Of a stretch of DNA of 64,000 nt, positions 25,389 to 51,770 are shown in pieces. The position numbers were made by a program, and so were the translations under genes. Positions within the stretch are counted from its first letter, which is position 1, and every line of letters begins with the position of its first letter. Where the stretch lies: the NCBI GenBank assembly GCA_000002445.1, contig AL929603.2:416001-480000 (forward strand). Reading direction: 5' to 3'. This DNA is from Trypanosoma brucei. Lineage: Eukaryota. The notes beneath the pieces were generated by a model. That model saw nothing but the letters and a program-made list of their open reading frames with translations. It made no database searches and was not told where the DNA came from.

Positions 25389-28300
25389 ATGTCGTATTAT
25401 AATAATCAACAACAGTCGCTCCCGTTTCAACCACTTCTTTCATCCAGAAGCTTCAGAACGGTACGCAGCCATGTAACGCGAACAAGTAACCTTCACTGTA
25501 GCACTGCAAGGGACGATGTTGATGCCACCTGCAGCGATACCACCATGAGTTTACACCATAGTGATACGAAAAGTTGTACCGATTTAGATTGTGCCACGAT
25601 GACCTCAAGGAGGAGACAACGATTGCCTTGCTTTGTTTGGAGCAAGAAAACTATTCCTCAACACCCCCAAGACTGGTCCAAGTCGAGACCAGATAGCTTC
25701 CGACATGATGATACCAGCCTTCTTAAGCAAGAGGGAGACTCGTTGCCCAGTGCACGAAGGGATGTACAACTACACTGCCAGGGACACCCAACACGGCCGC
25801 TCGTTTCCGCGCGGTCTGGGGGGAAAACGCGAACAAGGACTGTTTATAATAACAGTACCGTTACATGTACAACGTGCGCCACAGGTAGGAAGTTATCATA
25901 CCCACTATCAGTGGAAGCACATAATGATCACGCATTGTGCACGTGCGTCCCATGGCTCAGGTCTCTTGAGGCACTTCATCACCACGACGTAACCCCTGAA
26001 AAGGGCTGGGAATGCATATCCATTGAACGGGACGCGTTCAACCGCTCAACAGTTAGCTCCATTTCACCACCGTTATCACCGTATCTACCAGCGAAAACAC
26101 AGGGGAAAAAGGGACAAATGACAAATTTACTCTCACCACGAAGGTTGTACGCCGCCGTCAATAGCGCTAAAACCAAAAGCGACAGAGACGTATTTGCAGT
26201 TAGTGCCCGACCACATAAAACCAGTATGGGAAGCAGTGTAAACACAGCACGGCAGTATACAAAATATGTTAAAACAGCAAGAGAAGCATCACGAAAACCA
26301 CTTACTGTGCGCCATATCAATGACACAAATCCAATATATACCTTCTCAAATGAAAACAAGCAGAGGAATAAAGAAAATGCACTTCAGGATACGAAGAAGC
26401 CTGAAACAAAACCAGAAATAGAAATCTCCACAGCAACAACGGACGGACCTACGTACAACGAAAAAATAACAAAATGCAGAATGGAATCGCCTGCACTACG
26501 AAAAACAAAAAAAGAAGCTACGACCGAAAACCAAACTCAATGCACAAAACAGAAGGCACCAGCGACAAAAAATACATCTTCCATTCAAAAAAAATACGAA
26601 CTCAGTACCACACAAAAACAACAACTGGAAATAAAAAAAAAAGAAAAAAAGAAAAAAAAGAGTAGTATCAACACTAAAAACCCAATCACACAACAACAAA
26701 ACACAAAGCAACGTACATCGCTTACGCAGAACCTACAAAACAATTCAACATCAGAAAAGGAATTTAACCACATTCGAATAAACTCAACCAAAACCATCAT
26801 GGACGAGGCACCATGCGCCCCGGAGGACTTCCTAGCGGAGGAATCCCAGCAACACACTGCGAGGAGTGAAGCTGACATTGATGAAGAGCAGCAGCCGCAG
26901 GAGCAGCAAACCGAAGCCATCATGGACGAGGCACCATGCGCCCCGGAGGACTTCATAGCGGAGGAATCCCAGCAACACACTGCGAGGAGTGAAGCTGACA
27001 TTGATGAAGAGCAGCAGCCGCAGGAGCAGCAAACCGAAACCATCATGGACGAGGCACCATGCGCCCCGGAGGACTTCCTAGCGGAGGAATCCCAGCAACA
27101 CACTGCGAGGAGTGAAGCTGACATTGATGAAGAGCAGCAGCCGCAGGAGCAGCAAACCGAAACCATCATGGACGAGGCACCATGCGCCCCGGAGGACTTC
27201 CTAGCGGAGGAATCCCAGCAACACACTGCGAGGAGTGAAGCTGACATTGATGAAGAGCAGCAGCCGCAGGAGCAGCAAACCGAAACCATCATGGACGAGG
27301 CACCATGCGCCCCGGAGGACTTCCTAGCGGAGGAATCCCAGCAACACACTGCGAGGAGTGAAGCTGACATTGATGAAGAGCAGCAGCCGCAGGAGCAGCA
27401 AACCGAAACCATCATGGACGAGGCACCATGCGCCCCGGAGGACTTCCTAGCGGAGGAATCCCAGCAACACACTGCGAGGAGTGAAGCTGACATTGATGAA
27501 GAGCAGCAGCCGCAGGAGCAGCAAACCGAAACCATCATGGACGAGGCACCATGCGCCCCGGAGGACTTCCTAGCGGAGGAATCCCAGCAACACACTGCGA
27601 GGAGTGAAGCTGACATTGATGAAGAGCAGCAGCCGCAGGAGCAGCAAACCGAAGCCATCATGGACGAGGCACCATGCGCCCCGGAGGACTTCCTAGCGGA
27701 GGAATCCCAGCAACACACTGCGAGGAGTGAAGCTGACATTGATGAAGAGCAGCAGCCGCAGGAGCAGCAAACCGAAGCCATCATGGACGAGGCATCATGC
27801 GCCCCGGAGGACTTCATAGCGGAGGAATCCCAGCAACACACTGCGAGGAGTGAAGCTGACATTGATGAAGAGCAGCAGCCGCAGGAGCAGCAAACCGAAG
27901 CCATCATGGACGAGGCACCATGCGCCCCGGAGGACTTCCTAGCGGAGGAATCCCAGCAACACACTGCGAGGAGTGAAGCTGACATTGATGAAGAGCAGCA
28001 GCCGCAGGAGCAGCAAACCGAAGCCATCATGGACGAGGCACCATGCGCCCCGGAGGACTTCCTAGCGGAGGAATCCCAGCAACACACTGCGAGGAGTGAA
28101 GCTGACATTGATGAAGAGCAGCAGCCGCAGGAGCAGCAAACCGAAACCATCATGGACGAGGCACCATGCGCCCCGGAGGACTTCCTAGCGGAGGAATCCC
28201 AGCAACACACTGCGAGGAGTGAAGCTGACATTGATGAAGAGCAGCAGCCGCAGGAGCAGCAAACCGAAACCATCATGGACGAGGCACCATGCGCCCCGGA

Positions 28301-31300
28301 GGACTTCCTAGCGGAGGAATCCCAGCAACACACTGCGAGGAGTGAAGCTGACATTGATGAAGAGCAGCAGCCGCAGGAGCAGCAAACCGAAACCATCATG
28401 GACGAGGCACCATGCGCCCCGGAGGACTTCCTAGCGGAGGAATCCCAGCAACACACTGCGAGGAGTGAAGCTGACATTGATGAAGAGCAGCAGCCGCAGG
28501 AGCAGCAAACCGAAACCATCATGGACGAGGCACCATGCGCTCCGGAGGACTTCCTAGCGGAGGAATCCCAGCAACACACTGCGAGGAGTGAAGCTGACAT
28601 TGATGAAGAGCAGCAGCCGCAGGAGCAGCAAACCGAAACCATCATGGACGAGGCACCATGCGCCCCGGAGGACTTCCTAGCGGAGGAATCCCAGCAACAC
28701 ACTGCGAGGAGTGAAGCTGACATTGATGAAGAGCAGCAGCCGCAGGAGCAGCAAACCGAAACCATCATGGACGAGGCACCATGCGCTCCGGAGGACTTCC
28801 TAGCGGAGGAATCCCAGCAACACACTGCGAGGAGTGAAGCTGACATTGATGAAGAGCAGCAGCCGCAGGAGCAGCAAACCGAAACCATCATGGACGAGGC
28901 ACCATGCGCTCCGGAGGACTTCCTAGCGGAGGAATCCCAGCAACACACTGCGAGGAGTGAAGCTGACATTGATGAAGAGCAGCAGCCGCAGGAGCAGCAA
29001 ACCGAAACCATCATGGACGAGGCACCATGCGCTCCGGAGGACTTCATAGCGGAGGAATCCCAGCAACACACTGCGAGGAGTGAAGCTGACATTGATGAAG
29101 AGCAGCAGCCGCAGGAGCAGCAAACCGAAACCATCATGGACGAGGCACCATGCGCTCCGGAGGACTTCCTAGCGGAGGAATCCCAGCAACACACTGCGAG
29201 GAGTGAAGCTGACATTGATGAAGAGCAGCAGCCGCAGGAGCAGCAAACCGAAACCATCATGGACGAGGCACCATGCGCTCCGGAGGACTTCCTAGCGGAG
29301 GAATCCCAGCAACACACTGCGAGGAGTGAAGCTGACATTGACGAAGAGCAGCAGCCGCAGGAGCAGCAAACCGAAACCATCATGGACGAGGCACCATGCG
29401 CCCCGGAGGACTTCCTAGCGGAGGAATCCCAGCAACACACTGCGAGGAGTGAAGCTGACATTGATGAAGAGCAGCAGCCGCAGGAGCAGCAAACCGAAAC
29501 CATCATGGACGAGGCACCATGCGCCCCGGAGGACTTCCTAGCGGAGGAATCCCAGCAACACACTGCGAGGAGTGAAGCTGACATTGATGAAGAGCAGCAG
29601 CCGCAGGAGCAGCAAACCGAAACCATCATGGACGAGGCACCATGCGCCCCGGAGGACTTCCTAGCGGAGGAATCCCAGCAACACACTGCGAGGAGTGAAG
29701 CTGACATTGATGAAGAGCAGCAGCCGCAGGAGCAGCAAACCGAAACCATCATGGACGAGGCACCATGCGCTCCGGAGGACTTCCTAGCGGAGGAATCCCA
29801 GCAACACACTGCGAGGAGTGAAGCTGACATTGATGAAGAGCAGCAGCCGCAGGAGCAGCAAACCGAAACCATCATGGACGAGGCACCATGCGCTCCGGAG
29901 GACTTCCTAGCGGAGGAATCCCAGCAACACACTGCGAGGAGTGAAGCTGACATTGATGAAGAGCAGCAGCCGCAGGAGCAGCAAACCGAAACCATCATGG
30001 ACGAGGCACCATGCGCCCCGGAGGACTTCCTAGCGGAGGAATCCCAGCAACACACTGCGAGGAGTGAAGCTGACATTGATGAAGAGCAGCAGCCGCAGGA
30101 GCAGCAAACCGAAACCATCATGGACGAGGCACCATGCGCCCCGGAGGACTTCCTAGCGGAGGAATCCCAGCAACACACTGCGAGGAGTGAAGCTGACATT
30201 GATGAAGAGCAGCAGCCGCAGGAGCAGCAAACCGAAACCATCATGGACGAGGCACCATGCGCCCCGGAGGACTTCCTAGCGGAGGAATCCCAGCAACACA
30301 CTGCGAGGAGTGAAGCTGACATTGATGAAGAGCAGCAGCCGCAGGAGCAGCAAACCGAAACCATCATGGACGAGGCACCATGCGCCCCGGAGGACTTCCT
30401 AGCGGAGGAATCCCAGCAACACACTGCGAGGAGTGAAGCTGACATTGATGAAGAGCAGCAGCCGCAGGAGCAGCAAACCGAAGCCATCATGGACGAGGCA
30501 CCATGCGCCCCGGAGGACTTCATAGCGGAGGAATCCCAGCAACACACTGCGAGGAGTGAAGCTGACATTGATGAAGAGCAGCAGCCGCAGGAGCAGCAAA
30601 CCGAAACCATCATGGACGAGGCACCATGCGCCCCGGAGGACTTCCTAGCGGAGGAATCCCAGCAACACACTGCGAGGAGTGAAGCTGACATTGATGAAGA
30701 GCAGCAGCCGCAGGAGCAGCAAACCGAAACCATCATGGACGAGGCACCATGCGCCCCGGAGGACTTCCTAGCGGAGGAATCCCAGCAACACACTGCGAGA
30801 AGTGAAGCTGACATTGATGAAGAGCAGCAGCCGCAGGAGCAGCAAACCGAAACCATCATGGACGAGGCACCATGCGCCCCGGAGGACTTCCTAGCGGAGG
30901 AATCCCAGCAACACACTGCGAGAAGTGAAGCTGACATTGATGAAGAGCAGCAGCCGCAGGAGCAGCAAACCGAAACCATCATGGACGAGGCACCATGCGC
31001 CCCGGAGGACTTCCTAGCGGAGGAATCCCAGCAACACACTGCGAGGAGTGAAGCTGACATTGATGAAGAGCAGCAGCCGCAGGAGCAGCAAACCGAAACC
31101 ATCATGGACGAGGCACCATGCGCCCCGGAGGACTTCCTAGCGGAGGAATCCCAGCAACACACTGCGAGGAGTGAAGCTGACATTGATGAAGAGCAGCAGC
31201 CGCAGGAGCAGCAAACCGAAACCATCATGGACGAGGCACCATGCGCCCCGGAGGACTTCCTAGCGGAGGAATCCCAGCAACACACTGCGAGAAGTGAAGC

Positions 31301-34300
31301 TGACATTGATGAAGAGCAGCAGCCGCAGGAGCAGCAAACCGAAACCATCATGGACGAGGCACCATGCGCCCCGGAGGACTTCCTAGCGGAGGAATCCCAG
31401 CAACACACTGCGAGGAGTGAAGCTGACATTGATGAAGAGCAGCAGCCGCAGGAGCAGCAAACCGAAACCATCATGGACGAGGCACCATGCGCCCCGGAGG
31501 ACTTCCTAGCGGAGGAATCCCAGCAACACACTGCGAGGAGTGAAGCTGACATTGATGAAGAGCAGCAGCCGCAGGAGCAGCAAACCGAAACCATCATGGA
31601 CGAGGCACCATGCGCCCCGGAGGACTTCCTAGCGGAGGAATCCCAGCAACACACTGCGAGGAGTGAAGCTGACATTGATGAAGAGCAGCAGCCGCAGGAG
31701 CAGCAAACCGAAACCATCATGGACGAGGCACCATGCGCCCCGGAGGACTTCCTAGCGGAGGAATCCCAGCAACACACTGCGAGGAGTGAAGCTGACATTG
31801 ATGAAGAGCAGCAGCCGCAGGAGCAGCAAACCGAAGCCATCATGGACGAGGCACCATGCGCCCCGGAGGACTTCCTAGCGGAGGAATCCCAGCAACACAC
31901 TGCGAGGAGTGAAGCTGACATTGATGAAGAGCAGCAGCCGCAGGAGCAGCAAACCGAAGCCATCATGGACGAGGCACCATGCGCCCCGGAGGACTTCCTA
32001 GCGGAGGAATCCCAGCAACACACTGCGAGGAGTGAAGCTGACATTGATGAAGAGCAGCAGCCGCAGGAGCAGCAAACCGAAACCATCATGGACGAGGCAC
32101 CATGCGCCCCGGAGGACTTCCTAGCGGAGGAATCCCAGCAACACACTGCGAGGAGTGAAGCTGACATTGATGAAGAGCAGCAGCCGCAGGAGCAGCAAAC
32201 CGAAACCATCATGGACGAGGCACCATGCGCCCCGGAGGACTTCCTAGCGGAGGAATCCCAGCAACACACTGCGAGGAGTGAAGCTGACATTGATGAAGAG
32301 CAGCAGCCGCAGGAGCAGCAAACCGAAGCCATCATGGACGAGGCACCATGCGCCCCGGAGGACTTCCTAGCGGAGGAATCCCAGCAACACACTGCGAGGA
32401 GTGAAGCTGACATTGATGAAGAGCAGCAGCCGCAGGAGCAGCAAACCGAAACCATCATGGACGAGGCACCATGCGCCCCGGAGGACTTCCTAGCGGAGGA
32501 ATCCCAGCAACACACTGCGAGGAGTGAAGCTGACATTGATGAAGAGCAGCAGCCGCAGGAGCAGCAAACCGAAACCATCATGGACGAGGCACCATGCGCC
32601 CCGGAGGACTTCCTAGCGGAGGAATCCCAGCAACACACTGCGAGAAGTGAAGCTGACATTGATGAAGAGCAGCAGCCGCAGGAGCAGCAAACCGAAACCA
32701 TCATGGACGAGGCACCATGCGCCCCGGAGGACTTCCTAGCGGAGGAATCCCAGCAACACACTGCGAGAAGTGAAGCTGACATTGATGTAGAGCAGCAGCC
32801 GCAGGAGCAGCAAACCGAAACCATCATGGACGAGGCACCATGCGCCCCGGAGGACTTCCTAGCGGAGGAATCCCAGCAACACACTGCGAGAAGTGAAGCT
32901 GACATTGATGAAGAGCAGCAGCCGCAGGAGCAGCAAACCGAAACCATCATGGACGAGGCACCATGCGCCCCGGAGGACTTCCTAGCGGAGGAATCCCAGC
33001 AACACACTGCGAGGAGTGAAGCTGACATTGATGAAGAGCAGCAGCCGCAGGAGCAGCAAACCGAAACCATCATGGACGAGGCACCATGCGCCCCGGAGGA
33101 CTTCCTAGCGGAGGAATCCCAGCAACACACTGCGAGGAGTGAAGCTGACATTGATGAAGAGCAGCAGCCGCAGGAGCAGCAAACCGAAACCATCATGGAC
33201 GAGGCACCATGCGCCCCGGAGGACTTCCTAGCGGAGGAATCCCAGCAACACACTGCGAGGAGTGAAGCTGACATTGATGAAGAGCAGCAGCCGCAGGAGC
33301 AGCAAACCGAAACCATCATGGACGAGGCACCATGCGCTCCGGAGGACTTCCTAGCGGAGGAATCCCAGCAACACACTGCGAGGAGTGAAGCTGACATTGA
33401 TGAAGAGCAGCAGCCGCAGGAGCAGCAAACCGAAACCATCATGGACGAGGCACCATGCGCTCCGGAGGACTTCCTAGCGGAGGAATCCCAGCAACACACT
33501 GCGAGGAGTGAAGCTGACATTGATGAAGAGCAGCAGCCGCAGGAGCAGCAAACCGAAACCATCATGGACGAGGCACCATGCGCCCCGGAGGACTTCCTAG
33601 CGGAGGAATCCCAGCAACACACTGCGAGGAGTGAAGCTGACATTGATGAAGAGCAGCAGCCGCAGGAGCAGCAAACCGAAACCATCATGGACGAGGCACC
33701 ATGCGCCCCGGAGGACTTCCTAGCGGAGGAATCCCAGCAACACACTGCGAGGAGTGAAGCTGACATTGATGAAGAGCAGCAGCCGCAGGAGCAGCAAACC
33801 GAAGCCATCATGGACGAGGCACCATGCGCTCCGGAGGACTTCCTAGCGGAGGAATCCCAGCAACACACTGCGAGGAGTGAAGCTGGCATTGATGAAGAGC
33901 AGCAGCCGCAGGAGCAGCAAACCGAAACCATCATGGACGAGGCACCATGCGCCCCGGAGGACTTCCTAGCGGAGGAATCCCAGCAACACACTGCGAGGAG
34001 TGAAGCTGACATTGATGAAGAGCAGCAGCCGCAGGAGCAGCAAACCGAAACCATCATGGACGAGGCACCATGCGCTCCGGAGGACTTCCTAGCGGAGGAA
34101 TCCCAGCAACACACTGCGAGGAGTGAAGCTGACATTGATGAAGAGCAGCAGCCGCAGGAGCAGCAAACCGAAACCATCATGGACGAGGCACCATGCGCCC
34201 CGGAGGACTTCCTAGCGGAGGAATCCCAGCAACACACTGCGAGGAGTGAAGCTGACATTGATGAAGAGCAGCAGCCGCAGGAGCAGCAAACCGAAGCCAT

Positions 34301-37300
34301 CATGGACGAGGCACCATGCGCCCCGGAGGACTTCCTAGCGGAGGAATCCCAGCAACACACTGCGAGGAGTGAAGCTGACATTGATGAAGAGCAGCAGCCG
34401 CAGGAGCAGCAAACCGAAGCCATCATGGACGAGGCACCATGCGCCCCGGAGGACTTCCTAGCGGAGGAATCCCAGCAACACACTGCGAGGAGTGAAGCTG
34501 ACATTGATGAAGAGCAGCAGCCGCAGGAGCAGCAAACCGAAGCCATCATGGACGAGGCACCATGCGCCCCGGAGGACTTCCTAGCGGAGGAATCCCAGCA
34601 ACACACTGCGAGGAGTGAAGCTGACATTGATGAAGAGCAGCAGCCGCAGGAGCAGCAAACCGAAACCATCATGGACGAGGCACCATGCGCCCCGGAGGAC
34701 TTCCTAGCGGAGGAATCCCAGCAACACACTGCGAGGAGTGAAGCTGACATTGATGAAGAGCAGCAGCCGCAGGAGCAGCAAACCGAAACCATCATGGACG
34801 AGGCACCATGCGCCCCGGAGGACTTCCTAGCGGAGGAATCCCAGCAACACACTGCGAGGAGTGAAGCTGACATTGATGAAGAGCAGCAGCCGCAGGAGCA
34901 GCAAACCGAAACCATCATGGACGAGGCACCATGCGCCCCGGAGGACTTCCTAGCGGAGGAATCCCAGCAACACACTGCGAGGAGTGAAGCTGACATTGAT
35001 GAAGAGCAGCAGCCGCAGGAGCAGCAAACCGAAACCATCATGGACGAGGCACCATGCGCCCCGGAGGACTTCATAGCGGAGGAATCCCAGCAACACACTG
35101 CGAGGAGTGAAGCTGACATTGATGAAGAGCAGCAGCCGCAGGAGCAGCAAACCGAAGCCATCATGGACGAGGCACCATGCGCCCCGGAGGACTTCATAGC
35201 GGAGGAATCCCAGCAACACACTGCGAGGAGTGAAGCTGACATTGATGAAGAGCAGCAGCCGCAGGAGCAGCAAACCGAAACCATCATGGACGAGGCACCA
35301 TGCGCCCCGGAGGACTTCATAGCGGAGGAATCCCAGCAACACACTGCGAGGAGTGAAGCTGACATTGATGAAGAGCAGCAGCCGCAGGAGCAGCAAACCG
35401 AAACCATCATGGACGAGGCACCATGCGCCCCGGAGGACTTCCTAGCGGAGGAATCCCAGCAACACACTGCGAGGAGTGAAGCTGACATTGATGAAGAGCA
35501 GCAGCCGCAGGAGCAGCAAACCGAAACCATCATGGACGAGGCACCATGCGCCCCGGAGGACTTCCTAGCGGAGGAATCCCAGCAACACACTGCGAGGAGT
35601 GAAGCTGACATTGATGAAGAGCAGCAGCCGCAGGAGCAGCAAACCGAAACCATCATGGACGAGGCACCATGCGCCCCGGAGGACTTCCTAGCGGAGGAAT
35701 CCCAGCAACACACTGCGAGGAGTGAAGCTGACATTGATGAAGAGCAGCAGCCGCAGGAGCAGCAAACCGAAACCATCATGGACGAGGCACCATGCGCCCC
35801 GGAGGACTTCCTAGCGGAGGAATCCCAGCAACACACTGCGAGAAGTGAAGCTGACATTGATGAAGAGCAGCAGCCGCAGGAGCAGCAAACCGAAACCATC
35901 ATGGACGAGGCACCATGCGCCCCGGAGGACTTCCTAGCGGAGGAATCCCAGCAACACACTGCGAGAAGTGAAGCTGACATTGATGTAGAGCAGCAGCCGC
36001 AGGAGCAGCAAACCGAAACCATCATGGACGAGGCACCATGCGCCCCGGAGGACTTCCTAGCGGAGGAATCCCAGCAACACACTGCGAGAAGTGAAGCTGA
36101 CATTGATGAAGAGCAGCAGCCGCAGGAGCAGCAAACCGAAACCATCATGGACGAGGCACCATGCGCCCCGGAGGACTTCCTAGCGGAGGAATCCCAGCAA
36201 CACACTGCGAGAAGTGAAGCTGACATTGATGAAGAGCAGCAGCCGCAGGAGCAGCAAACCGAAACCATCATGGACGAGGCACCATGCGCCCCGGAGGACT
36301 TCCTAGCGGAGGAATCCCAGCAACACACTGCGAGGAGTGAAGCTGACATTGATGAAGAGCAGCAGCCGCAGGAGCAGCAAACCGAAACCATCATGGACGA
36401 GGCACCATGCGCCCCGGAGGACTTCCTAGCGGAGGAATCCCAGCAACACACTGCGAGGAGTGAAGCTGACATTGATGAAGAGCAGCAGCCGCAGGAGCAG
36501 CAAACCGAAACCATCATGGACGAGGCACCATGCGCCCCGGAGGACTTCCTAGCGGAGGAATCCCAGCAACACACTGCGAGGAGTGAAGCTGACATTGATG
36601 AAGAGCAGCAGCCGCAGGAGCAGCAAACCGAAACCATCATGGACGAGGCACCATGCGCCCCGGAGGACTTCATAGCGGAGGAATCCCAGCAACACACTGC
36701 GAGGAGTGAAGCTGACATTGATGAAGAGCAGCAGCCGCAGGAGCAGCAAACCGAAACCATCATGGACGAGGCACCATGCGCCCCGGAGGACTTCATAGCG
36801 GAGGAATCCCAGCAACACACTGCGAGGAGTGAAGCTGACATTGATGAAGAGCAGCAGCCGCAGGAGCAGCAAACCGAAACCATCATGGACGAGGCACCAT
36901 GCGCCCCGGAGGACTTCCTAGCGGAGGAATCCCAGCAACACACTGCGAGGAGTGAAGCTGACATTGATGAAGAGCAGCAGCCGCAGGAGCAGCAAACCGA
37001 AACCATCATGGACGAGGCACCATGCGCCCCGGAGGACTTCCTAGCGGAGGAATCCCAGCAACACACTGCGAGGAGTGAAGCTGACATTGATGAAGAGCAG
37101 CAGCCGCAGGAGCAGCAAACCGAAACCATCATGGACGAGGCACCATGCGCTCCGGAGGACTTCCTAGCGGAGGAATCCCAGCAACACACTGCGAGGAGTG
37201 AAGCTGACATTGATGAAGAGCAGCAGCCGCAGGAGCAGCAAACCGAAACCATCATGGACGAGGCACCATGCGCCCCGGAGGACTTCCTAGCGGAGGAATC

Positions 37301-40300
37301 CCAGCAACACACTGCGAGGAGTGAAGCTGACATTGATGAAGAGCAGCAGCCGCAGGAGCAGCAAACCGAAACCATCATGGACGAGGCACCATGCGCCCCG
37401 GAGGACTTCCTAGCGGAGGAATCCCAGCAACACACTGCGAGGAGTGAAGCTGACATTGATGAAGAGCAGCAGCCGCAGGAGCAGCAAACCGAAACCATCA
37501 TGGACGAGGCACCATGCGCCCCGGAGGACTTCCTAGCGGAGGAATCCCAGCAACACACTGCGAGGAGTGAAGCTGACATTGATGAAGAGCAGCAGCCGCA
37601 GGAGCAGCAAACCGAAGCCATCATGGACGAGGCACCATGCGCCCCGGAGGACTTCCTAGCGGAGGAATCCCAGCAACACACTGCGAGGAGTGAAGCTGAC
37701 ATTGATGAAGAGCAGCAGCCGCAGGAGCAGCAAACCGAAGCCATCATGGACGAGGCACCATGCGCCCCGGAGGACTTCCTAGCGGAGGAATCCCAGCAAC
37801 ACACTGCGAGGAGTGAAGCTGACATTGATGAAGAGCAGCAGCCGCAGGAGCAGCAAACCGAAGCCATCATGGACGAGGCACCATGCGCCCCGGAGGACTT
37901 CCTAGCGGAGGAATCCCAGCAACACACTGCGAGAAGTGAAGCTGACATTGATGAAGAGCAGCAGCCGCAGGAGCAGCAAACCGAAACCATCATGGACGAG
38001 GCACCATGCGCCCCGGAGGACTTCCTAGCGGAGGAATCCCAGCAACACACTGCGAGAAGTGAAGCTGACATTGATGAAGAGCAGCAGCCGCAGGAGCAGC
38101 AAACCGAAACCATCATGGACGAGGCACCATGCGCCCCGGAGGACTTCCTAGCGGAGGAATCCCAGCAACACACTGCGAGGAGTGAAGCTGACATTGATGA
38201 AGAGCAGCAGCCGCAGGAGCAGCAAACCGAAACCATCATGGACGAGGCACCATGCGCCCCGGAGGACTTCCTAGCGGAGGAATCCCAGCAACACACTGCG
38301 AGAAGTGAAGCTGACATTGATGAAGAGCAGCAGCCGCAGGAGCAGCAAACCGAAACCATCATGGACGAGGCACCATGCGCCCCGGAGGACTTCCTAGCGG
38401 AGGAATCCCAGCAACACACTGCGAGAAGTGAAGCTGACATTGATGAAGAGCAGCAGCCGCAGGAGCAGCAAACCGAAACCATCATGGACGAGGCACCATG
38501 CGCCCCGGAGGACTTCCTAGCGGAGGAATCCCAGCAACACACTGCGAGGAGTGAAGCTGACATTGATGAAGAGCAGCAGCCGCAGGAGCAGCAAACCGAA
38601 ACCATCATGGACGAGGCACCATGCGCCCCGGAGGACTTCCTAGCGGAGGAATCCCAGCAACACACTGCGAGGAGTGAAGCTGACATTGATGAAGAGCAGC
38701 AGCCGCAGGAGCAGCAAACCGAAACCATCATGGACGAGGCACCATGCGCCCCGGAGGACTTCCTAGCGGAGGAATCCCAGCAACACACTGCGAGAAGTGA
38801 AGCTGACATTGATGAAGAGCAGCAGCCGCAGGAGCAGCAAACCGAAACCATCATGGACGAGGCACCATGCGCCCCGGAGGACTTCCTAGCGGAGGAATCC
38901 CAGCAACACACTGCGAGGAGTGAAGCTGACATTGATGAAGAGCAGCAGCCGCAGGAGCAGCAAACCGAAACCATCATGGACGAGGCACCATGCGCCCCGG
39001 AGGACTTCCTAGCGGAGGAATCCCAGCAACACACTGCGAGGAGTGAAGCTGACATTGATGAAGAGCAGCAGCCGCAGGAGCAGCAAACCGAACCCATCAT
39101 GGACGAGGCACCATGCGCCCCGGAGGACTTCCTAGCGGAGGAATCCCAGCAACACACTGCGAGGAGTGAAGCTGACATTGATGAAGAGCAGCAGCCGCAG
39201 GAGCAGCAAACCGAAGCCATCATGGACGAGGCACCATGCGCCCCGGAGGACTTCCTAGCGGAGGAATCCCAGCAACACACTGCGAGGAGTGAAGCTGACA
39301 TTGATGAAGAGCAGCAGCCGCAGGAGCAGCAAACCGAAGCCATCATGGACGAGGCACCATGCGCCCCGGAGGACTTCCTAGCGGAGGAATCCCAGCAACA
39401 CACTGCGAGGAGTGAAGCTGACATTGATGAAGAGCAGCAGCCGCAGGAGCAGCAAACCGAAGCCATCATGGACGAGGCACCATGCGCCCCGGAGGACTTC
39501 CTAGCGGAGGAATCCCAGCAACACACTGCGAGGAGTGAAGCTGACATTGATGAAGAGCAGCAGCCGCAGGAGCAGCAAACCGAAACCATCATGGACGAGG
39601 CACCATGCGCCCCGGAGGACTTCCTAGCGGAGGAATCCCAGCAACACACTGCGAGGAGTGAAGCTGACATTGATGAAGAGCAGCAGCCGCAGGAGCAGCA
39701 AACCGAAACCATCATGGACGAGGCACCATGCGCCCCGGAGGACTTCCTAGCGGAGGAATCCCAGCAACACACTGCGAGGAGTGAAGCTGACATTGATGAA
39801 GAGCAGCAGCCGCAGGAGCAGCAAACCGAAACCATCATGGACGAGGCACCATGCGCCCCGGAGGACTTCCTAGCGGAGGAATCCCAGCAACACACTGCGA
39901 GGAGTGAAGCTGACATTGATGAAGAGCAGCAGCCGCAGGAGCAGCAAACCGAAGCCATCATGGACGAGGCACCATGCGCCCCGGAGGACTTCATAGCGGA
40001 GGAATCCCAGCAACACACTGCGAGGAGTGAAGCTGACATTGATGAAGAGCAGCAGCCGCAGGAGCAGCAAACCGAAACCATCATGGACGAGGCACCATGC
40101 GCCCCGGAGGACTTCCTAGCGGAGGAATCCCAGCAACACACTGCGAGGAGTGAAGCTGACATTGATGAAGAGCAGCAGCCGCAGGAGCAGCAAACCGAAA
40201 CCATCATGGACGAGGCACCATGCGCCCCGGAGGACTTCCTAGCGGAGGAATCCCAGCAACACACTGCGAGAAGTGAAGCTGACATTGATGTAGAGCAGCA

Positions 40301-43300
40301 GCCGCAGGAGCAGCAAACCGAAACCATCATGGACGAGGCACCATGCGCCCCGGAGGACTTCCTAGCGGAGGAATCCCAGCAACACACTGCGAGAAGTGAA
40401 GCTGACATTGATGAAGAGCAGCAGCCGCAGGAGCAGCAAACCGAAACCATCATGGACGAGGCACCATGCGCCCCGGAGGACTTCCTAGCGGAGGAATCCC
40501 AGCAACACACTGCGAGGAGTGAAGCTGACATTGATGAAGAGCAGCAGCCGCAGGAGCAGCAAACCGAAACCATCATGGACGAGGCACCATGCGCCCCGGA
40601 GGACTTCCTAGCGGAGGAATCCCAGCAACACACTGCGAGAAGTGAAGCTGACATTGATGAAGAGCAGCAGCCGCAGGAGCAGCAAACCGAAACCATCATG
40701 GACGAGGCACCATGCGCCCCGGAGGACTTCCTAGCGGAGGAATCCCAGCAACACACTGCGAGGAGTGAAGCTGACATTGATGAAGAGCAGCAGCCGCAGG
40801 AGCAGCAAACCGAAACCATCATGGACGAGGCACCATGCGCCCCGGAGGACTTCCTAGCGGAGGAATCCCAGCAACACACTGCGAGGAGTGAAGCTGACAT
40901 TGATGAAGAGCAGCAGCCGCAGGAGCAGCAAACCGAAACCATCATGGACGAGGCACCATGCGCCCCGGAGGACTTCCTAGCGGAGGAATCCCAGCAACAC
41001 ACTGCGAGGAGTGAAGCTGACATTGATGAAGAGCAGCAGCCGCAGGAGCAGCAAACCGAAACCATCATGGACGAGGCACCATGCGCCCCGGAGGACTTCC
41101 TAGCGGAGGAATCCCAGCAACACACTGCGAGGAGTGAAGCTGACATTGATGAAGAGCAGCAGCCGCAGGAGCAGCAAACCGAAACCATCATGGACGAGGC
41201 ACCATGCGCCCCGGAGGACTTCCTAGCGGAGGAATCCCAGCAACACACTGCGAGGAGTGAAGCTGACATTGATGAAGAGCAGCAGCCGCAGGAGCAGCAA
41301 ACCGAAGCCATCATGGACGAGGCACCATGCGCCCCGGAGGACTTCCTAGCGGAGGAATCCCAGCAACACACTGCGAGGAGTGAAGCTGACATTGATGAAG
41401 AGCAGCAGCCGCAGGAGCAGCAAACCGAAGCCATCATGGACGAGGCACCATGCGCCCCGGAGGACTTCCTAGCGGAGGAATCCCAGCAACACACTGCGAG
41501 GAGTGAAGCTGACATTGATGAAGAGCAGCAGCCGCAGGAGCAGCAAACCGAAGCCATCATGGACGAGGCACCATGCGCCCCGGAGGACTTCATAGCGGAG
41601 GAATCCCAGCAACACACTGCGAGGAGTGAAGCTGACATTGATGAAGAGCAGCAGCCGCAGGAGCAGCAAACCGAAACCATCATGGACGAGGCACCATGCG
41701 CCCCGGAGGACTTCATAGCGGAGGAATCCCAGCAACACACTGCGAGGAGTGAAGCTGACATTGATGAAGAGCAGCAGCCGCAGGAGCAGCAAACCGAAAC
41801 CATCATGGACGAGGCACCATGCGCCCCGGAGGACTTCCTAGCGGAGGAATCCCAGCAACACACTGCGAGAAGTGAAGCTGACATTGATGAAGAGCAGCAG
41901 CCGCAGGAGCAGCAAACCGAAACCATCATGGACGAGGCACCATGCGCCCCGGAGGACTTCCTAGCGGAGGAATCCCAGCAACACACTGCGAGGAGTGAAG
42001 CTGACATTGATGAAGAGCAGCAGCCGCAGGAGCAGCAAACCGAAACCATCATGGACGAGGCACCATGCGCCCCGGAGGACTTCCTAGCGGAGGAATCCCA
42101 GCAACACACTGCGAGAAGTGAAGCTGACATTGATGAAGAGCAGCAGCCGCAGGAGCAGCAAACCGAAACCATCATGGACGAGGCACCATGCGCCCCGGAG
42201 GACTTCCTAGCGGAGGAATCCCAGCAACACACTGCGAGGAGTGAAGCTGACATTGATGAAGAGCAGCAGCCGCAGGAGCAGCAAACCGAAACCATCATGG
42301 ACGAGGCACCATGCGCTCCGGAGGACTTCCTAGCGGAGGAATCCCAGCAACACACTGCGAGGAGTGAAGCTGACATTGATGAAGAGCAGCAGCCGCAGGA
42401 GCAGCAAACCGAAACCATCATGGACGAGGCACCATGCGCCCCGGAGGACTTCCTAGCGGAGGAATCCCAGCAACACACTGCGAGGAGTGAAGCTGACATT
42501 GATGAAGAGCAGCAGCCGCAGGAGCAGCAAACCGAAACCATCATGGACGAGGCACCATGCGCCCCGGAGGACTTCCTAGCGGAGGAATCCCAGCAACACA
42601 CTGCGAGGAGTGAAGCTGACATTGATGAAGAGCAGCAGCCGCAGGAGCAGCAAACCGAAACCATCATGGACGAGGCACCATGCGCTCCGGAGGACTTCCT
42701 AGCGGAGGAATCCCAGCAACACACTGCGAGGAGTGAAGCTGACATTGATGAAGAGCAGCAGCCGCAGGAGCAGCAAACCGAAACCATCATGGACGAGGCA
42801 CCATGCGCTCCGGAGGACTTCCTAGCGGAGGAATCCCAGCAACACACTGCGAGGAGTGAAGCTGACATTGATGAAGAGCAGCAGCCGCAGGAGCAGCAAA
42901 CCGAAACCATCATGGACGAGGCACCATGCGCTCCGGAGGACTTCCTAGCGGAGGAATCCCAGCAACACACTGCGAGGAGTGAAGCTGACATTGATGAAGA
43001 GCAGCAGCCGCAGGAGCAGCAAACCGAAACCATCATGGACGAGGCACCATGCGCCCCGGAGGACTTCCTAGCGGAGGAATCCCAGCAACACACTGCGAGG
43101 AGTGAAGCTGACATTGATGAAGAGCAGCAGCCGCAGGAGCAGCAAACCGAAACCATCATGGACGAGGCACCATGCGCCCCGGAGGACTTCATAGCGGAGG
43201 AATCCCAGCAACACACTGCGAGGAGTGAAGCTGACATTGATGAAGAGCAGCAGCCGCAGGAGCAGCAAACCGAAACCATCATGGACGAGGCACCATGCGC

Positions 43301-46300
43301 CCCGGAGGACTTCATAGCGGAGGAATCCCAGCAACACACTGCGAGGAGTGAAGCTGACATTGATGAAGAGCAGCAGCCGCAGGAGCAGCAAACCGAAACC
43401 ATCATGGACGAGGCACCATGCGCCCCGGAGGACTTCATAGCGGAGGAATCCCAGCAACACACTGCGAGGAGTGAAGCTGACATTGATGAAGAGCAGCAGC
43501 CGCAGGAGCAGCAAACCGAAACCATCATGGACGAGGCACCATGCGCCCCGGAGGACTTCATAGCGGAGGAATCCCAGCAACACACTGCGAGGAGTGAAGC
43601 TGACATTGATGAAGAGCAGCAGCCGCAGGAGCAGCAAACCGAAACCATCATGGACGAGGCACCATGCGCCCCGGAGGACTTCATAGCGGAGGAATCCCAG
43701 CAACACACTGCGAGGAGTGAAGCTGACATTGATGAAGAGCAGCAGCCGCAGGAGCAGCAAACCGAAGCCATCATGGACGAGGCACCATGCGCTCCGGAGG
43801 ACTTCATAGCGGAGGAATCCCAGCAACACACTGCGAGGAGTGAAGCTGACATTGATGAAGAGCAGCAGCCGCAGGAGCAGCAAACCGAAGCCATCATGGA
43901 CGAGGCACCATGCGCCCCGGAGGACTTCCTAGCGGAGGAATCCCAGCAACACACTGCGAGGAGTGAAGCTGACATTGATGAAGAGCAGCAGCCGCAGGAG
44001 CAGCAAACCGAAACCATCATGGACGAGGCACCATGCGCCCCGGAGGACTTCCTAGCGGAGGAATCCCAGCAACACACTGCGAGGAGTGAAGCTGACATTG
44101 ATGAAGAGCAGCAGCCGCAGGAGCAGCAAACCGAAACCATCATGGACGAGGCACCATGCGCCCCGGAGGACTTCATAGCGGAGGAATCCCAGCAACACAC
44201 TGCGAGGAGTGAAGCTGACATTGATGAAGAGCAGCAGCCGCAGGAGCAGCAAACCGAAACCATCATGGACGAGGCACCATGCGCCCCGGAGGACTTCCTA
44301 GCGGAGGAATCCCAGCAACACACTGCGAGGAGTGAAGCTGACATTGATGAAGAGCAGCAGCCGCAGGAGCAGCAAACCGAAACCATCATGGACGAGGCAC
44401 CATGCGCCCCGGAGGACTTCCTAGCGGAGGAATCCCAGCAACACACTGCGAGGAGTGAAGCTGACATTGATGAAGAGCAGCAGCCGCAGGAGCAGCAAAC
44501 CGAAACCATCATGGACGAGGCACCATGCGCTCCGGAGGACTTCCTAGCGGAGGAATCCCAGCAACACACTGCGAGGAGTGAAGCTGACATTGATGAAGAG
44601 CAGCAGCCGCAGGAGCAGCAAACCGAAACCATCATGGACGAGGCACCATGCGCCCCGGAGGACTTCCTAGCGGAGGAATCCCAGCAACACACTGCGAGGA
44701 GTGAAGCTGACATTGATGAAGAGCAGCAGCCGCAGGAGCAGCAAACCGAAGCCATCATGGACGAGGCACCATGCGCCCCGGAGGACTTCCTAGCGGAGGA
44801 ATCCCAGCAACACACTGCGAGGAGTGAAGCTGACATTGATGAAGAGCAGCAGCCGCAGGAGCAGCAAACCGAAGCCATCATGGACGAGGCACCATGCGCC
44901 CCGGAGGACTTCCTAGCGGAGGAATCCCAGCAACACACTGCGAGGAGTGAAGCTGACATTGATGAAGAGCAGCAGCCGCAGGAGCAGCAAACCGAAACCA
45001 TCATGGACGAGGCACCATGCGCTCCGGAGGACTTCCTAGCGGAGGAATCCCAGCAACACACTGCGAGGAGTGAAGCTGACATTGATGAAGAGCAGCAGCC
45101 GCAGGAGCAGCAAACCGAAGCCATCATGGACGAGGCACCATGCGCCCCGGAGGACTTCCTAGCGGAGGAATCCCAGCAACACACTGCGAGGAGTGAAGCT
45201 GACATTGATGAAGAGCAGCAGCCGCAGGAGCAGCAAACCGAAACCATCATGGACGAGGCACCATGCGCCCCGGAGGACTTCCTAGCGGAGGAATCCCAGC
45301 AACACACTGCGAGGAGTGAAGCTGACATTGATGAAGAGCAGCAGCCGCAGGAGCAGCAAACCGAAACCATCATGGACGAGGCACCATGCGCCCCGGAGGA
45401 CTTCATAGCGGAGGAATCCCAGCAACACACTGCGAGGAGTGAAGCTGACATTGATGAAGAGCAGCAGCCGCAGGAGCAGCAAACCGAAACCATCATGGAC
45501 GAGGCACCATGCGCCCCGGAGGACTTCATAGCGGAGGAATCCCAGCAACACACTGCGAGGAGTGAAGCTGACATTGATGAAGAGCAGCAGCCGCAGGAGC
45601 AGCAAACCGAAACCATCATGGACGAGGCACCATGCGCCCCGGAGGACTTCCTAGCGGAGGAATCCCAGCAACACACTGCGAGGAGTGAAGCTGACATTGA
45701 TGAAGAGCAGCAGCCGCAGGAGCAGCAAACCGAAACCATCATGGACGAGGCACCATGCGCCCCGGAGGACTTCCTAGCGGAGGAATCCCAGCAACACACT
45801 GCGAGGAGTGAAGCTGACATTGATGAAGAGCAGCAGCCGCAGGAGCAGCAAACCGAAACCATCATGGACGAGGCACCATGCGCTCCGGAGGACTTCCTAG
45901 CGGAGGAATCCCAGCAACACACTGCGAGGAGTGAAGCTGACATTGATGAAGAGCAGCAGCCGCAGGAGCAGCAAACCGAAACCATCATGGACGAGGCACC
46001 ATGCGCTCCGGAGGACTTCCTAGCGGAGGAATCCCAGCAACACACTGCGAGGAGTGAAGCTGACATTGATGAAGAGCAGCAGCCGCAGGAGCAGCAAACC
46101 GAAACCATCATGGACGAGGCACCATGCGCTCCGGAGGACTTCCTAGCGGAGGAATCCCAGCAACACACTGCGAGGAGTGAAGCTGACATTGATGATGAGC
46201 TAGGTAAGATTGTGAATCTGTTTATAGTGGAAGAGAAGTGTAGAAGGAGTATTATTGAAGATACTGAGTTTTGTATGCGTAATATTTTCTCCGACGTTTT

Positions 46301-46988: not shown

Positions 46989-47026
<38 letters not shown>
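46989..47026. repeat. (TA)19 microsatellite immediately 3' of the giant repeat gene
   Basis: atatat... run. Confidence 0.9.
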
Positions 47027-47028
<2 letters not shown>

Positions 47029-47360
47029 TTTTTCCTTAAAAATTTGCTTTACTTTTGATTGTACGTGTATGTGTATCTGTACCTCTCGTTCTACTTTTGT
47101 TTTTGTGTGATGACGTTCGGTTCGATGTTACTACATGGAATACACCAATAACGACGTCAATTACTGTCGACCTTTTTTGTTTTGTGTTTTCCCATTTACC
47201 TGCGAGGTGTATCCACGTACAGCTGTGTACACATGCACCTTGTATTCTTCAATTGCCTTTATAGTTGGTCATCATTCTCTTTTTTGTATTAGCTATCAAA
47301 TTTTCTGTGTCTTGGATGAGGCGATATCATTAGGCGGCACCGACGCTGCGTAAAGACTTT

Positions 47361-47427
47361 GCGCCTCCTCACTGTTTATTTGTTTCATTTTCTTTTCCTT
47401 TTTTTTTTTGGTTATGTCCCCTCTAAC
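47361..47427 (+). promoter_or_regulatory. polypyrimidine tract plus AG (47428-47429) upstream of the 470-aa gene
   Basis: gcgcctcctcactgtttatttgtttcattttcttttcctttttttttttggttatgtcccctctaacAG. Confidence 0.45.
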
Positions 47428-47473
47428 AGGACTAACTTGTTAGCCTTCGTTTGAACGCAGAAGTAGAGGTTGA

Positions 47474-48886
47474 ATGGAGCTCAATCTTACACAACTTCCA
47501 CTTGTTCATATCACATTTTGCGGCCGCCCAGCGGTTTCCATTGGGGTCGTCAATTTGGTTGGTCTATTTGGCAGCACGGACTATGTGCTCCTTCAGCGGA
47601 TCGGTAGTCAGGGTCAAACCGCGCTTCGCAAAGGGGATGGAGGAGGCAGGCATTCAAAAGATTCAAGGGATAGTAGCTTGGACTCATTGGAAATTGAGAA
47701 TCGTGTGCGGAGTTCAAATATGAAGCTTTGCCGAAATACAGGCCTTCCAGTAGGATGCTACAACGTCGTAGAGGGCGGAATTTATGACGTGGTACGCTAT
47801 AGCGACCTTCGTAAGGGGAAGGTTAAGGGTATGGATTTCGCCACGCTCAATAGACATAGTGATGGCCGACCCAAAACGCGCCGGGGGTGCAGAAGTCGAA
47901 GGAAACGACGCAGGGATGGCACTGTTGAAAACGCTGCACAGAGTACACCAAGCGATACAGTCTCTTCATCATTTAAACAACCTAGCACTCCCGTACCTAC
48001 GGACCCCAGCGGTACCTCCGGGGGAACAAACGGAGTTTCTCAGCGTGCGAAGGTGGTGCGTGCCGCGCAGCCGTCGGAGAGGAAAGCACACCAGAAGGCA
48101 ACAAAGGTGTCACAAACGTCTAAACAAACTGGGGGTAAAGAAGCGCCAGCTGTCGATGAAAAGAACTCCAACGGCACCAAGGTGGAAAGAACACGGACCA
48201 CTAAACCAAGGGCGCCGGGAATACCCAAAGAGAGACCGCCACGTGTCGGTAAAGAAAAGGTTCAGCAACTGAAGCCTGTAGCGGAAGCCGCCCCGCAGCA
48301 CGCACCGAGCAGATCACCGTCTCCTAGGCAGGCGAATAGTAACTTTGCCGCGGTGGTTTTAACGGCGTCGGATCTGCGGTCGTGTGACCTTGGCAGCAGT
48401 TTGTCAAATGTTTCGGTGTGCACGGACAAGGCAGAAACGCAGATGACACCAACGACGGGTCCGGTAACAACTTCAATGCAACTAAATAAGTCCAAACACG
48501 TCCCCAGCAGCACGGGTCGTACAGCTGCCCAGGACAACGGAGCAAAGAAAACACCCCAAGTGGCAACTCCTGTGGGCGAAAGTGCCAATGCGAAGAAGCA
48601 ACAGGATGTGGTGGATGTGGACAATGCGCTGTTGGTTGGACATGGTTCCTCAAGTAACGGTAAGAAAGAAGGTGGGAGTACAGGTTTAGCAAACGTTAGA
48701 ACGGATCATTCCCGAGATGTGGTGGACCGTCGGGCGGCTGCAGCGCCTTCGAATTCCATCGTTGAGTGCCCTTGTGCTCCCGATGCCGCAAGTCCGGAGC
48801 TGGGTTTCGTTACGGTCGAGAGTGCCTTATCCCGTGACTTTAGTTTAGGATCATCTCTTGCCTCATCTGCAGACTCGGTGTATTAA
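47474..48886 (+). CDS. hypothetical basic Ser/Thr/Lys-rich protein (470 aa), probably intrinsically disordered
   Basis: An ATG ORF downstream of the polypyrimidine tract 47361-47427 and AG 47428. It has low-complexity, basic composition (RRGCRSRRKRRRDG, many S/T/P/K). No domain was recognised, and the true start could be an internal Met. Confidence 0.5.
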   Translation: MELNLTQLPLVHITFCGRPAVSIGVVNLVGLFGSTDYVLLQRIGSQGQTALRKGDGGGRHSKDSRDSSLDSLEIENRVRSSNMKLCRNTGLPVGCYNVVEGGIYDVVRYSDLRKGKVKGMDFATLNRHSDGRPKTRRGCRSRRKRRRDGTVENAAQSTPSDTVSSSFKQPSTPVPTDPSGTSGGTNGVSQRAKVVRAAQPSERKAHQKATKVSQTSKQTGGKEAPAVDEKNSNGTKVERTRTTKPRAPGIPKERPPRVGKEKVQQLKPVAEAAPQHAPSRSPSPRQANSNFAAVVLTASDLRSCDLGSSLSNVSVCTDKAETQMTPTTGPVTTSMQLNKSKHVPSSTGRTAAQDNGAKKTPQVATPVGESANAKKQQDVVDVDNALLVGHGSSSNGKKEGGSTGLANVRTDHSRDVVDRRAAAAPSNSIVECPCAPDAASPELGFVTVESALSRDFSLGSSLASSADSVY

Positions 48887-50322: not shown

Positions 50323-50323
<1 letters not shown>

Positions 50324-50362
<39 letters not shown>

Positions 50363-50895: not shown

Positions 50896-50912
50896 GTGAG
50901 GGACCTACCAGG

Positions 50913-51768: not shown

Positions 51769-51770
<2 letters not shown>

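What the first reader, a model, noticed from the sequence alone, without database searches (positions are those of the whole stretch)
26795..46195. Higher-order (block) periodicity inside the 123-bp array
The rare variants are not scattered at random. The GAA-to-GTA (Glu to Val) change appears three times, at 32787, 35985 and 40290. The spacings are exactly 26x123 and 35x123 bp. Each time it lies inside a short run of units carrying the synonymous AGG-to-AGA variant. The CTA-to-ATA (Leu to Ile) variant occurs in runs: 3 consecutive units at about 35050-35290, 6 at about 43190-43810, and three separate pairs (about 36660/36790, 41580/41710 and 45400/45530). The ACC-to-GCC (Thr to Ala) variant also clusters in runs of 2-3 units. 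This is the signature of segmental duplication of multi-unit blocks, not unit-by-unit slippage.
Basis: seen in the sequence. Interest (0 to 1): 0.6.

Follow-up and report, generated by a model that had tools for sequence, protein, structure and literature searches.

The report
Clustered variants in trypanosome repeat gene
The 19-kb array is the known 41-amino-acid repeat region of the Trypanosoma brucei gene Tb927.1.1740; its rare variant units do sit in short runs, but there is no higher-order period, and the pattern is the ordinary footprint of local recombination that keeps a tandem repeat uniform.

Summary
The array has 157 indel-free in-frame 123-bp units plus a partial one. The Glu-to-Val change lies in units 49, 75 and 110, always on the AGA background. 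Leu-to-Ile, Thr-to-Ala, AGG-to-AGA and an unnoticed GCC-to-GCT variant each form short runs (permutation p <= 3e-4).

The "exact" 26x and 35x spacings are automatic in an array without indels. Similarity between units is strong at lag 1, weaker at lag 2 and gone by lag 4. No lag of 7 or more exceeds chance (family-wise p = 0.95). Repeated multi-unit patterns do not exceed a null that keeps the runs. The best candidate block, about 20 units, depends on the scoring scheme.

Toy simulations reject pure single-unit slippage and also blocks averaging 20 units. They favour mostly single-unit steps plus occasional short out-of-register transfers.

The locus is Tb927.1.1740 of T. b. brucei TREU927 chromosome 1, a published giant repeat protein. 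T. b. gambiense and T. equiperdum IVM-t1 carry a unit type with five differences (4.1%, against about 1% in the flanks). This is concerted evolution of a coding minisatellite. Long-range unit order in this Sanger-era reference cannot be verified. The finding is ordinary and of low interest.

The parts
25389..46853 (+). ORF of 7154 aa, Tb927.1.1740 of T. b. brucei TREU927 ('T. brucei spp.-specific protein', annotated as putative FUTSCH). It has a 469-aa unique N-terminus, the repeat region, and a unique C-terminal tail after the partial last unit.
   Evidence: The length of 7154 aa and the 132 copies of LAEESQQHTARSEADIDE match PMC2254594 Table 3. Flanking proteins match TREU927 accessions exactly. 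No Pfam domain was found.
26796..46106 (+). 157 complete in-frame 123-bp (41-aa) units. Consensus: IMDEAPCAPEDFLAEESQQHTARSEADIDEEQQPQEQQTET. TRF gives array limits 26786..46200.
   Evidence: There are no indels and 99 variant nucleotides in 19,311 bp.
46107..46195 (+). Partial, diverged terminal unit 158. It carries 24T with 30G, 37C and 39A.
32577..32945 (+). Units 48-50, pattern A-V-A. This is a 69A run holding the first Glu>Val unit (unit 49, 32700..32822).
35775..36266 (+). Units 74-77, pattern A-V-A-A. This is a 69A run holding the second Glu>Val unit (unit 75, 35898..36020).
40203..40448 (+). Units 110-111, pattern V-A. The third Glu>Val unit (unit 110) lies at the edge of a two-unit 69A run.
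35037..35405 (+). Units 68-70, a run of three Leu>Ile (37A) units.
43155..43892 (+). Units 134-139, a run of six Leu>Ile (37A) units. The last two also carry 121G, and the last also 24T.
30609..33068 (+). Units 32-51, first arm of the only candidate diverged multi-unit block ('.AA..A...GG-..G..AVA.').
   Evidence: Significance depends on the scoring scheme (p = 0.012 to 0.63).
38112..40571 (+). Units 93-112, second arm of the candidate block ('.AA..A.gGGG...GI.-VA.'), 61 units downstream of the first.

Best explanation
The array is a coding minisatellite inside the T. brucei gene Tb927.1.1740, kept nearly uniform by concerted evolution. Out-of-register homologous recombination between repeat units does this: replication slippage or unequal sister-chromatid exchange, plus short-tract gene conversion.

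Most events shift by about one unit, so a variant spreads to its neighbours and forms runs of 2-6 units, with a correlation length of about two units. A minority of events copy short patches, from less than one unit to a few units, into misaligned and sometimes distant positions. These events interleave the runs of the four old variants along the array and placed the rare 69A+89T unit at three sites.

There is no fixed higher-order period.

Shown here: the variant map, the short-range clustering, the absence of any long-lag signal, the fixed differences between lineages, and the gene identity. Inferred: the recombination mechanism and the size distribution of events, which rest on toy simulations.
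For: Clustering and lack of period:
- Each common variant clusters (p <= 3e-4).
- Autocorrelation is confined to lags 1-3 and nothing stands out at lags of 7 or more.
- Multi-unit patterns do not clearly exceed run-preserving nulls (lowest p 0.03 at 3 units, uncorrected).

Simulations:
- Single-unit steps alone give one block per variant and are rejected.
- Mixtures of single-unit steps with about 15-20% short patches (mean 2-5 units) reproduce runs per carrier, lag-1 and lag-2 correlation in 43-54% of accepted runs. They remain compatible with the short longest repeat (P 0.13-0.21).
- Patch-conversion or unequal-exchange models with blocks averaging 20 units give P 0.01-0.02.

Recombination inside units:
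- Sites 24, 37 and 121 are in linkage equilibrium within units and all four allele combinations occur, so breakpoints fall inside units.
- 69A never shares a unit with the other three variants (0 against about 9 expected, p = 1e-5). It is confined to units 33-125 (p = 0.014), as expected for a younger variant still spreading.

Concerted evolution:
- DAL972 (8 assembled units) and T. equiperdum IVM-t1 (56.8 units) carry units with 24T, 30C, 37A, 39G and 93A. That is 4.1% from the window consensus, against 0.9-1.3% substitution divergence in the flanks.
- The window's minor variants 24T and 37A are the other lineages' fixed states. ATA is the mutational intermediate between CTA and ATG, and the window's edge unit keeps 24T.
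Against: - Even the best-fitting simulations predict somewhat more repeated multi-unit patterns than observed (6-unit pattern pairs: 13 observed against a median of about 48; P 0.05-0.09). The toy model therefore misses something, probably sub-unit conversion tracts or exchange between alleles.
- Unequal exchange and gene conversion cannot be told apart from one static sequence.
- The long-range order of units in a Sanger-era assembly of a 19-kb, 99%-identical array is unverified. The longest variant-free stretch is 699 bp, about one read. The absence of long-range structure could therefore partly be an assembly effect.
- No second reliable unit-by-unit map was available. DAL972 is collapsed, OVI contigs break at the array, and IVM-t1 was built from low-coverage PacBio reads polished with short reads.
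Confidence: 0.7

Rival explanations
1. The array grew by segmental duplication of large multi-unit blocks and so has a higher-order repeat structure, with blocks of about 26, 35 or 61 units marked by the Glu>Val unit.
For: - The 69A+89T unit occurs three times in similar A-V-A contexts.
- The best gapped self-alignment pairs units 32-51 with units 93-112, and lag 61 has the highest autocorrelation z of 1.9.
- Log-odds scoring gives p = 0.012 against a run shuffle.
Against: - The lag-61 signal has family-wise p = 0.95, and lags 26 and 35 show nothing.
- The self-alignment p rises to 0.09 when A-V-A runs are kept intact, and to 0.45-0.63 with simple scoring.
- Units 48-73 and 74-99 share little beyond AVA and a GGG run.
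- Simulated arrays shaped by blocks averaging 20 units hold repeated patterns of 19-20 units against 9 observed (P 0.01-0.02).
Confidence: 0.1
2. The order of units beyond about one read length is an artefact of assembling a near-identical 19-kb array from Sanger reads, possibly from two haplotypes. On this reading only the short-range runs are real, and the three Glu>Val sites or the array length may be wrong.
For: - Every other available assembly fails here. DAL972 collapses to 8 units followed by low-quality sequence, OVI contigs stop exactly at both array edges, and IVM-t1 gives 56.8 uniform units with 1-bp deletions.
- The longest variant-free stretch is 699 bp, and consensus runs never exceed 4 units (P = 0.07 under a geometric fit).
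- Structure is seen only within 3 units or fewer, which is less than one read.
Against: - The array is perfectly in frame over 157 units with no indel.
- Misassembly usually collapses repeats rather than dispersing them.
- The published annotated mRNA length of 22,197 nt, used for dual-end single-molecule FISH, is consistent with a very long transcript (PMC6326799). That length comes from the same annotation, so it is not independent evidence.
- Reads are not available to test this.
Confidence: 0.15
3. The variants recur by independent mutation at hotspot sites, or are held in place by selection on the protein, so neighbouring units resemble each other without any copying.
For: Only four sites carry nearly all the variation.
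Against: - Recurrent mutation gives no reason for carriers to be adjacent, yet clustering has p <= 3e-4.
- Two of the four common variants are synonymous.
- 24T and 37A are shared with other lineages as fixed states, so they are old polymorphisms rather than new hits.
- An identical A>T transversion arising three times, always on the 69A background, is very unlikely when 114 of the 123 unit positions never vary in any of the 157 units and four more vary in a single unit each.
Confidence: 0.03

Closest known systems
Minisatellites with interspersed variant repeats, as mapped by MVR-PCR in human minisatellites and in the T. brucei MS42, CRAM and 292 loci (from my own knowledge; no paper was read here)
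   Same: - Head-to-tail units of tens to about a hundred bp.
- A few variant unit types interspersed along the array and clustered in short runs.
- Allele length polymorphism.
- Turnover by unequal exchange and patchy gene conversion.
   Different: - This array is entirely coding (41 aa per unit) and unusually long (157 units, 19.4 kb).
- No end-polarity of variation is seen (bin tests p 0.24-0.99).
- No mutation events have been observed directly.
Giant tandem-repeat protein genes of trypanosomatids, catalogued in PMC2254594. Tb927.1.1740 itself is listed there as the most repetitive pathogen protein in that table.
   Same: This is the same gene: 7154 aa and 132 perfect copies of LAEESQQHTARSEADIDE.
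   Different: That survey counts perfect repeats only. It does not describe the arrangement of variant units, and I found no description of it elsewhere in the searchable literature.
Higher-order repeat arrays such as primate alpha satellite (from my own knowledge)
   Same: A long tandem array homogenised by unequal exchange.
   Different: Higher-order arrays have a constant multi-monomer period, and copies of the higher-order unit are far more alike than neighbouring monomers are. Here all units are about 99% identical and no lag of 7 or more shows excess similarity.

Membership tests
Coding minisatellite under concerted evolution | Head-to-tail units whose length is a multiple of three, kept in frame within an ORF. 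| tested here: met
   There are 157 units of exactly 123 bp with no indels, inside the 7154-aa ORF.
Coding minisatellite under concerted evolution | Units within an array are more alike than units of related lineages, with fixed array-wide differences exceeding flank divergence. | tested here: met
   DAL972 and IVM-t1 units differ from the window consensus at 5 of 123 positions (4.1%), array-wide apart from position 93 (one DAL972 unit keeps 93G; three IVM-t1 units have a 1-bp deletion there). Flank substitution divergence is 0.9-1.3%. Those two arrays are poorly assembled, so only their majority unit type is trusted.
Coding minisatellite under concerted evolution | Copy number differs between strains. 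| tested here: inconclusive
   Assembled copy numbers are 157.8 (TREU927), 56.8 (IVM-t1) and 8 (DAL972). The last two assemblies are unreliable at this locus.
Coding minisatellite under concerted evolution | Variant units cluster at short range through local spread. | tested here: met
   Adjacent-pair excess has p <= 3e-4 for each of the four variants. Lag-1 z is 9.3, decaying to about 0 by lag 4.
Higher-order repeat (HOR) array | A constant multi-unit period, seen as excess similarity at one lag and its multiples. | tested here: not met
   No lag of 7 or more exceeds the run-preserving null. The maximum z is 1.9 (family-wise p = 0.95).
Higher-order repeat (HOR) array | Heterogeneous multi-unit patterns repeated more often than chance. 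| tested here: not met
   Pattern-pair counts for 3-8 units and the longest repeat (7 units) do not clearly exceed the run-shuffle null (lowest p 0.03 at 3 units, uncorrected) and lie within the Markov null.
Segmental (multi-unit) duplication within the array | At least one pair of diverged multi-unit blocks, or a rare unit type copied to non-adjacent sites. | tested here: inconclusive
   The rare 69A+89T unit lies at units 49, 75 and 110. The candidate 20-unit block has p = 0.012 to 0.63 depending on null and scoring. Models with blocks averaging 20 units are disfavoured (P 0.01-0.02).
FUTSCH / MAP1B-like microtubule-associated protein (the database annotation) | Sequence similarity to MAP1B/Futsch domains. 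| tested here: not met
   No Pfam family matches the N-terminus or the C-terminus. The weak whole-protein hits to the repeat region have no qualifying stretch. The only homologue found is the T. b. gambiense orthologue, named 'T. brucei spp.-specific protein'.

The most novel reading that the evidence does not exclude
The faint 61-unit self-similarity (units 32-51 against 93-112) and the three A-V-A sites could be the eroded trace of real large-block duplications. Together with the old polymorphisms shared across lineages (24T, 37A, and 69A seen also in T. equiperdum OVI), the unit-variant map of this gene could then serve as a high-resolution recorder of mitotic and meiotic recombination history among T. 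brucei strains.
Probability: 0.12. Interest if true: 0.3.

Novelty: new member of a known kind. Interest (0 to 1): 0.15.

Why it matters
It matters little beyond the locus. The array and gene are already in the reference annotation and the literature, and short-range clustering of variant repeats is the expected footprint of concerted evolution.

Three modest points of value:
- It shows that the reference copy of this 22-kb reporter gene is not a perfect repeat. About 55% of units carry a marker, which could support unit-level typing or probe design.
- The unit type differs between TREU927 and the gambiense and IVM-t1 lineages, with fast array-wide fixation. This is a possible strain marker.
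- It warns that the long-range order of this Sanger-era array is unverified.

Tried and rejected
- Exact pattern-repeat tests and lag autocorrelation against run-preserving nulls found no higher-order signal.
- Gapped self-alignment of the haplotype string gave one candidate block, not robust to the scoring scheme.
- The first run-shuffle null, which used rejection sampling, timed out and was rewritten.
- Pure patch-conversion simulations give no runs at all (lag-1 correlation about 0), and pure single-unit slippage gives one block per variant. Both were rejected as sole mechanisms.
- A protein search with the N-terminus, three repeats and the C-terminus found only the DAL972 orthologue.
- Pfam gave no domain.
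- Comparing strains for block boundaries was uninformative. DAL972 is collapsed, the OVI contigs end at the array, and IVM-t1 is uniform but built from about 7,500 PacBio reads with Pilon polishing.
- The TREU927 chromosome I paper could not be retrieved.
- Tests for polarity or regional heterogeneity of variants were negative, except for the restricted span of 69A.
- An association between 121G in one unit and 37A in the next was weak (7 against 3.9 expected, p = 0.07).
Full report
**What is there**

Tandem Repeats Finder reports one array at 26786..46200 with period 123, 157.8 copies, 99% matches and no indels. It lies in frame within a 7154-aa ORF at 25389..46853 on the + strand. Cutting from 26796 gives 157 units of exactly 123 bp, encoding IMDEAPCAPEDFLAEESQQHTARSEADIDEEQQPQEQQTET, plus a diverged partial unit at 46107.

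Only nine sites vary:
- 24T: 22 units, synonymous.
- 37A: 21 units, Leu>Ile.
- 69A: 20 units, synonymous.
- 121G: 29 units, Thr>Ala.
- 89T: 3 units, Glu>Val.
- Four sites carried by one unit each (16T, 80G, 87C, 121C).

Writing each unit as a letter (. consensus, G 121G, I 37A, T 24T, A 69A, V 69A+89T, lower case for rare combinations), the array reads:

GI....GGcG....T.TTdTe...TT...GI.AA..A...GG..G..AVA...TT.Gf.TGGG....bII...AVAA...II..T..GGGAA.AA..A.gGGG...GI.VA.A....GGGIIA.A.T..TTT.IIIIbh..I..TGG.j..II..TT

**Check of the observation**

Glu>Val lies in units 49, 75 and 110, with codon starts at 32787, 35985 and 40290, always on the 69A background. The Leu>Ile runs are at units 68-70 and 134-139, with pairs at 81-82, 121-122 and 152-153.

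Each common variant clusters far beyond chance. Adjacent carrier pairs are 9, 10, 9 and 14 against 2.9, 2.7, 2.4 and 5.2 expected (p <= 3e-4).

The "exact" spacings of 26x123 and 35x123 are not evidence of anything. Without indels, every pair of like sites is a multiple of 123 apart.

**Is there a higher-order period or repeated blocks?**

No.

- Against a full shuffle, site-sharing autocorrelation has z = 9.3, 3.6 and 1.6 at lags 1-3, and about 0 from lag 4.
- Against a null that shuffles runs and gaps but keeps them intact, no lag of 7 or more is notable. The best is lag 61 at z = 1.9 (family-wise p = 0.95). Lags 26 and 35 give z = 0.4 and -0.1.
- Counts of repeated heterogeneous patterns of 3-8 units do not clearly exceed the run-shuffle null (lowest p 0.03 at 3 units, uncorrected for the 12 statistics; p 0.11-1.0 for 5-8 units) and lie within the first-order Markov null. 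The longest repeated pattern is 7 units, against null means of 6.8-7.5.
- A gapped self-alignment finds one candidate, units 32-51 against units 93-112 ('.AA..A...GG-..G..AVA.' against '.AA..A.gGGG...GI.-VA.').
- Its significance is fragile. With log-odds scoring, p = 0.012 against a run shuffle and 0.09 when A-V-A runs are kept intact. With a simple match/mismatch scheme, p = 0.45 and 0.63.

**What the pattern does require**

Runs of the same variant in neighbouring units are the mark of unit-scale copying, not of block duplication. But single-unit steps alone are also excluded, because they keep all descendants of a unit contiguous. Here each variant sits in 11-15 separate runs interleaved with the others.

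In forward simulations of a 157-unit array:
- Single-unit duplication and deletion gave 0.04 runs per carrier and lag-1 correlation 0.95, against 0.55 and 0.36 observed.
- Pure patch conversion gave no runs, with lag-1 correlation about 0.
- Mixtures of single-unit steps with about 15-20% short out-of-register patches (mean 2-5 units) matched runs per carrier, lag-1 and lag-2 correlation in 43-54% of accepted runs. They were compatible with the short longest repeat (P 0.13-0.21).
- Models with blocks averaging 20 units predicted repeated patterns of 19-20 units against 9 observed on common-variant strings (P 0.01-0.02).
- Even the best models predict more repeated patterns than seen (P 0.05-0.09 for 6-unit pattern pairs).

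That last shortfall suggests tracts shorter than one unit. Sites 24, 37 and 121 are in linkage equilibrium within units, with all four allele combinations present, which fits this. 69A never shares a unit with the other three (0 against about 9 expected, p = 1e-5). It is confined to units 33-125 (p = 0.014), as a younger variant would be.

The simulations are crude. I use them only to rank classes of mechanism.

**Identity**

The window has intron-less eukaryotic genes, all on one strand. The three flanking proteins are exact matches to T. b. brucei TREU927 entries on a 1,064,672-bp contig.

The ORF has 7154 aa and 132 copies of LAEESQQHTARSEADIDE. These are exactly the figures given for Tb927.1.1740 in a survey of perfect amino-acid repeats, where it heads the table of most repetitive pathogen proteins (PMC2254594).

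Its 22,197-nt mRNA, annotated as putative FUTSCH, is used as a single-molecule FISH reporter (PMC6326799). No Pfam domain supports the FUTSCH name. The only homologue found is the T. b. gambiense orthologue, named "T. brucei spp.-specific protein".

**Other strains**

- T. b. gambiense DAL972 chromosome 1 has the array collapsed to 8 units followed by low-quality sequence.
- T. equiperdum OVI contigs stop exactly at both edges of the array.
- T. equiperdum IVM-t1 has 56.8 units, all identical except for three with a 1-bp deletion at position 93. That assembly used about 7,500 PacBio reads plus Pilon polishing with short reads (PMC6395869). Only its majority unit type can be trusted.

In both DAL972 and IVM-t1 the unit carries 24T, 30C, 37A, 39G and 93A. 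That is 4.1% from the window consensus, while the flanks differ by 0.9-1.3%. This is concerted evolution.

The window's minor variants 24T and 37A are the fixed states elsewhere. ATA (Ile) is the intermediate between CTA (Leu) and ATG (Met). The window's terminal partial unit keeps 24T. So these are old polymorphisms being sorted, not recent mutations.

**Caveat**

The unit order comes from a Sanger-era assembly. The longest variant-free stretch is 699 bp, and consensus runs never exceed four units (P = 0.07). Long uniform stretches may therefore have been collapsed, and order beyond one read is unverified. This weakens any statement about long-range structure, whether for or against it. It does not touch the short-range runs.

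**Verdict**

This is a known gene showing the ordinary signature of minisatellite homogenisation.

Noticed in passing
window 26585..46189 (-): There is a 6534-aa antisense ORF across the array. One reverse frame of the 123-bp unit has no stop codon, so the ORF simply repeats. It is almost certainly not a gene.
   Followed up: partly
window 26796..46106: The coding strand of the array is strongly skewed: A 31%, T 11%, purines 61%, AT skew about 0.49. G+C is 58%, against 35-50% in the surrounding sequence.
   Followed up: partly
L002:11408..12500 (T. b. gambiense DAL972 chr 1, FN554964.1): The annotated 831-aa orthologue is an assembly artefact. There are 8 repeat units, then a frameshifted low-quality stretch with an N. 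The real C-terminal coding sequence lies out of frame downstream.
   Followed up: yes
L003:14949, 15932, 20851 (T. equiperdum IVM-t1, CM010672.1): Three units have the same 1-bp deletion at unit position 93, which splits the gene call into 678-aa and 1629-aa pieces. The site is the 93A/93G polymorphism seen in DAL972, so these are probably polishing errors at truly variant units.
   Followed up: partly
L005:1..40 (T. equiperdum OVI, CZPT02000853.1): The contig begins inside the last partial repeat unit and has AGA (69A) where the window's terminal unit has AGG. So 69A is not private to TREU927.
   Followed up: no
window 26796..46106: The longest stretch with no variant nucleotide is 699 bp, and consensus-unit runs never exceed 4. 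This is about one Sanger read, which hints that longer uniform stretches may have been collapsed in the reference.
   Followed up: partly
window 46989..63259: The intergenic regions downstream hold many microsatellites: (AT)19 at 46989, (TA)27 at 50323, (TTA)29 at 51771, (GTGA)9 at 53692, and a long imperfect (TA)n at 56760-56916.
   Followed up: no
window 54272..55417; L002:18463..19146 and 20532..21677: The DAL972 locus carries two PIN-domain genes downstream of a glutaredoxin gene. The window ORF at 54272 corresponds to the second one (381 aa).
   Followed up: no
window 25389..26795: The last 130 or so residues of the unique N-terminus before the repeats are low-complexity and rich in K, T, Q and N. 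They include a lysine run (KKKEKKKKK) that coincides with an N-gap in the OVI contig.
   Followed up: no
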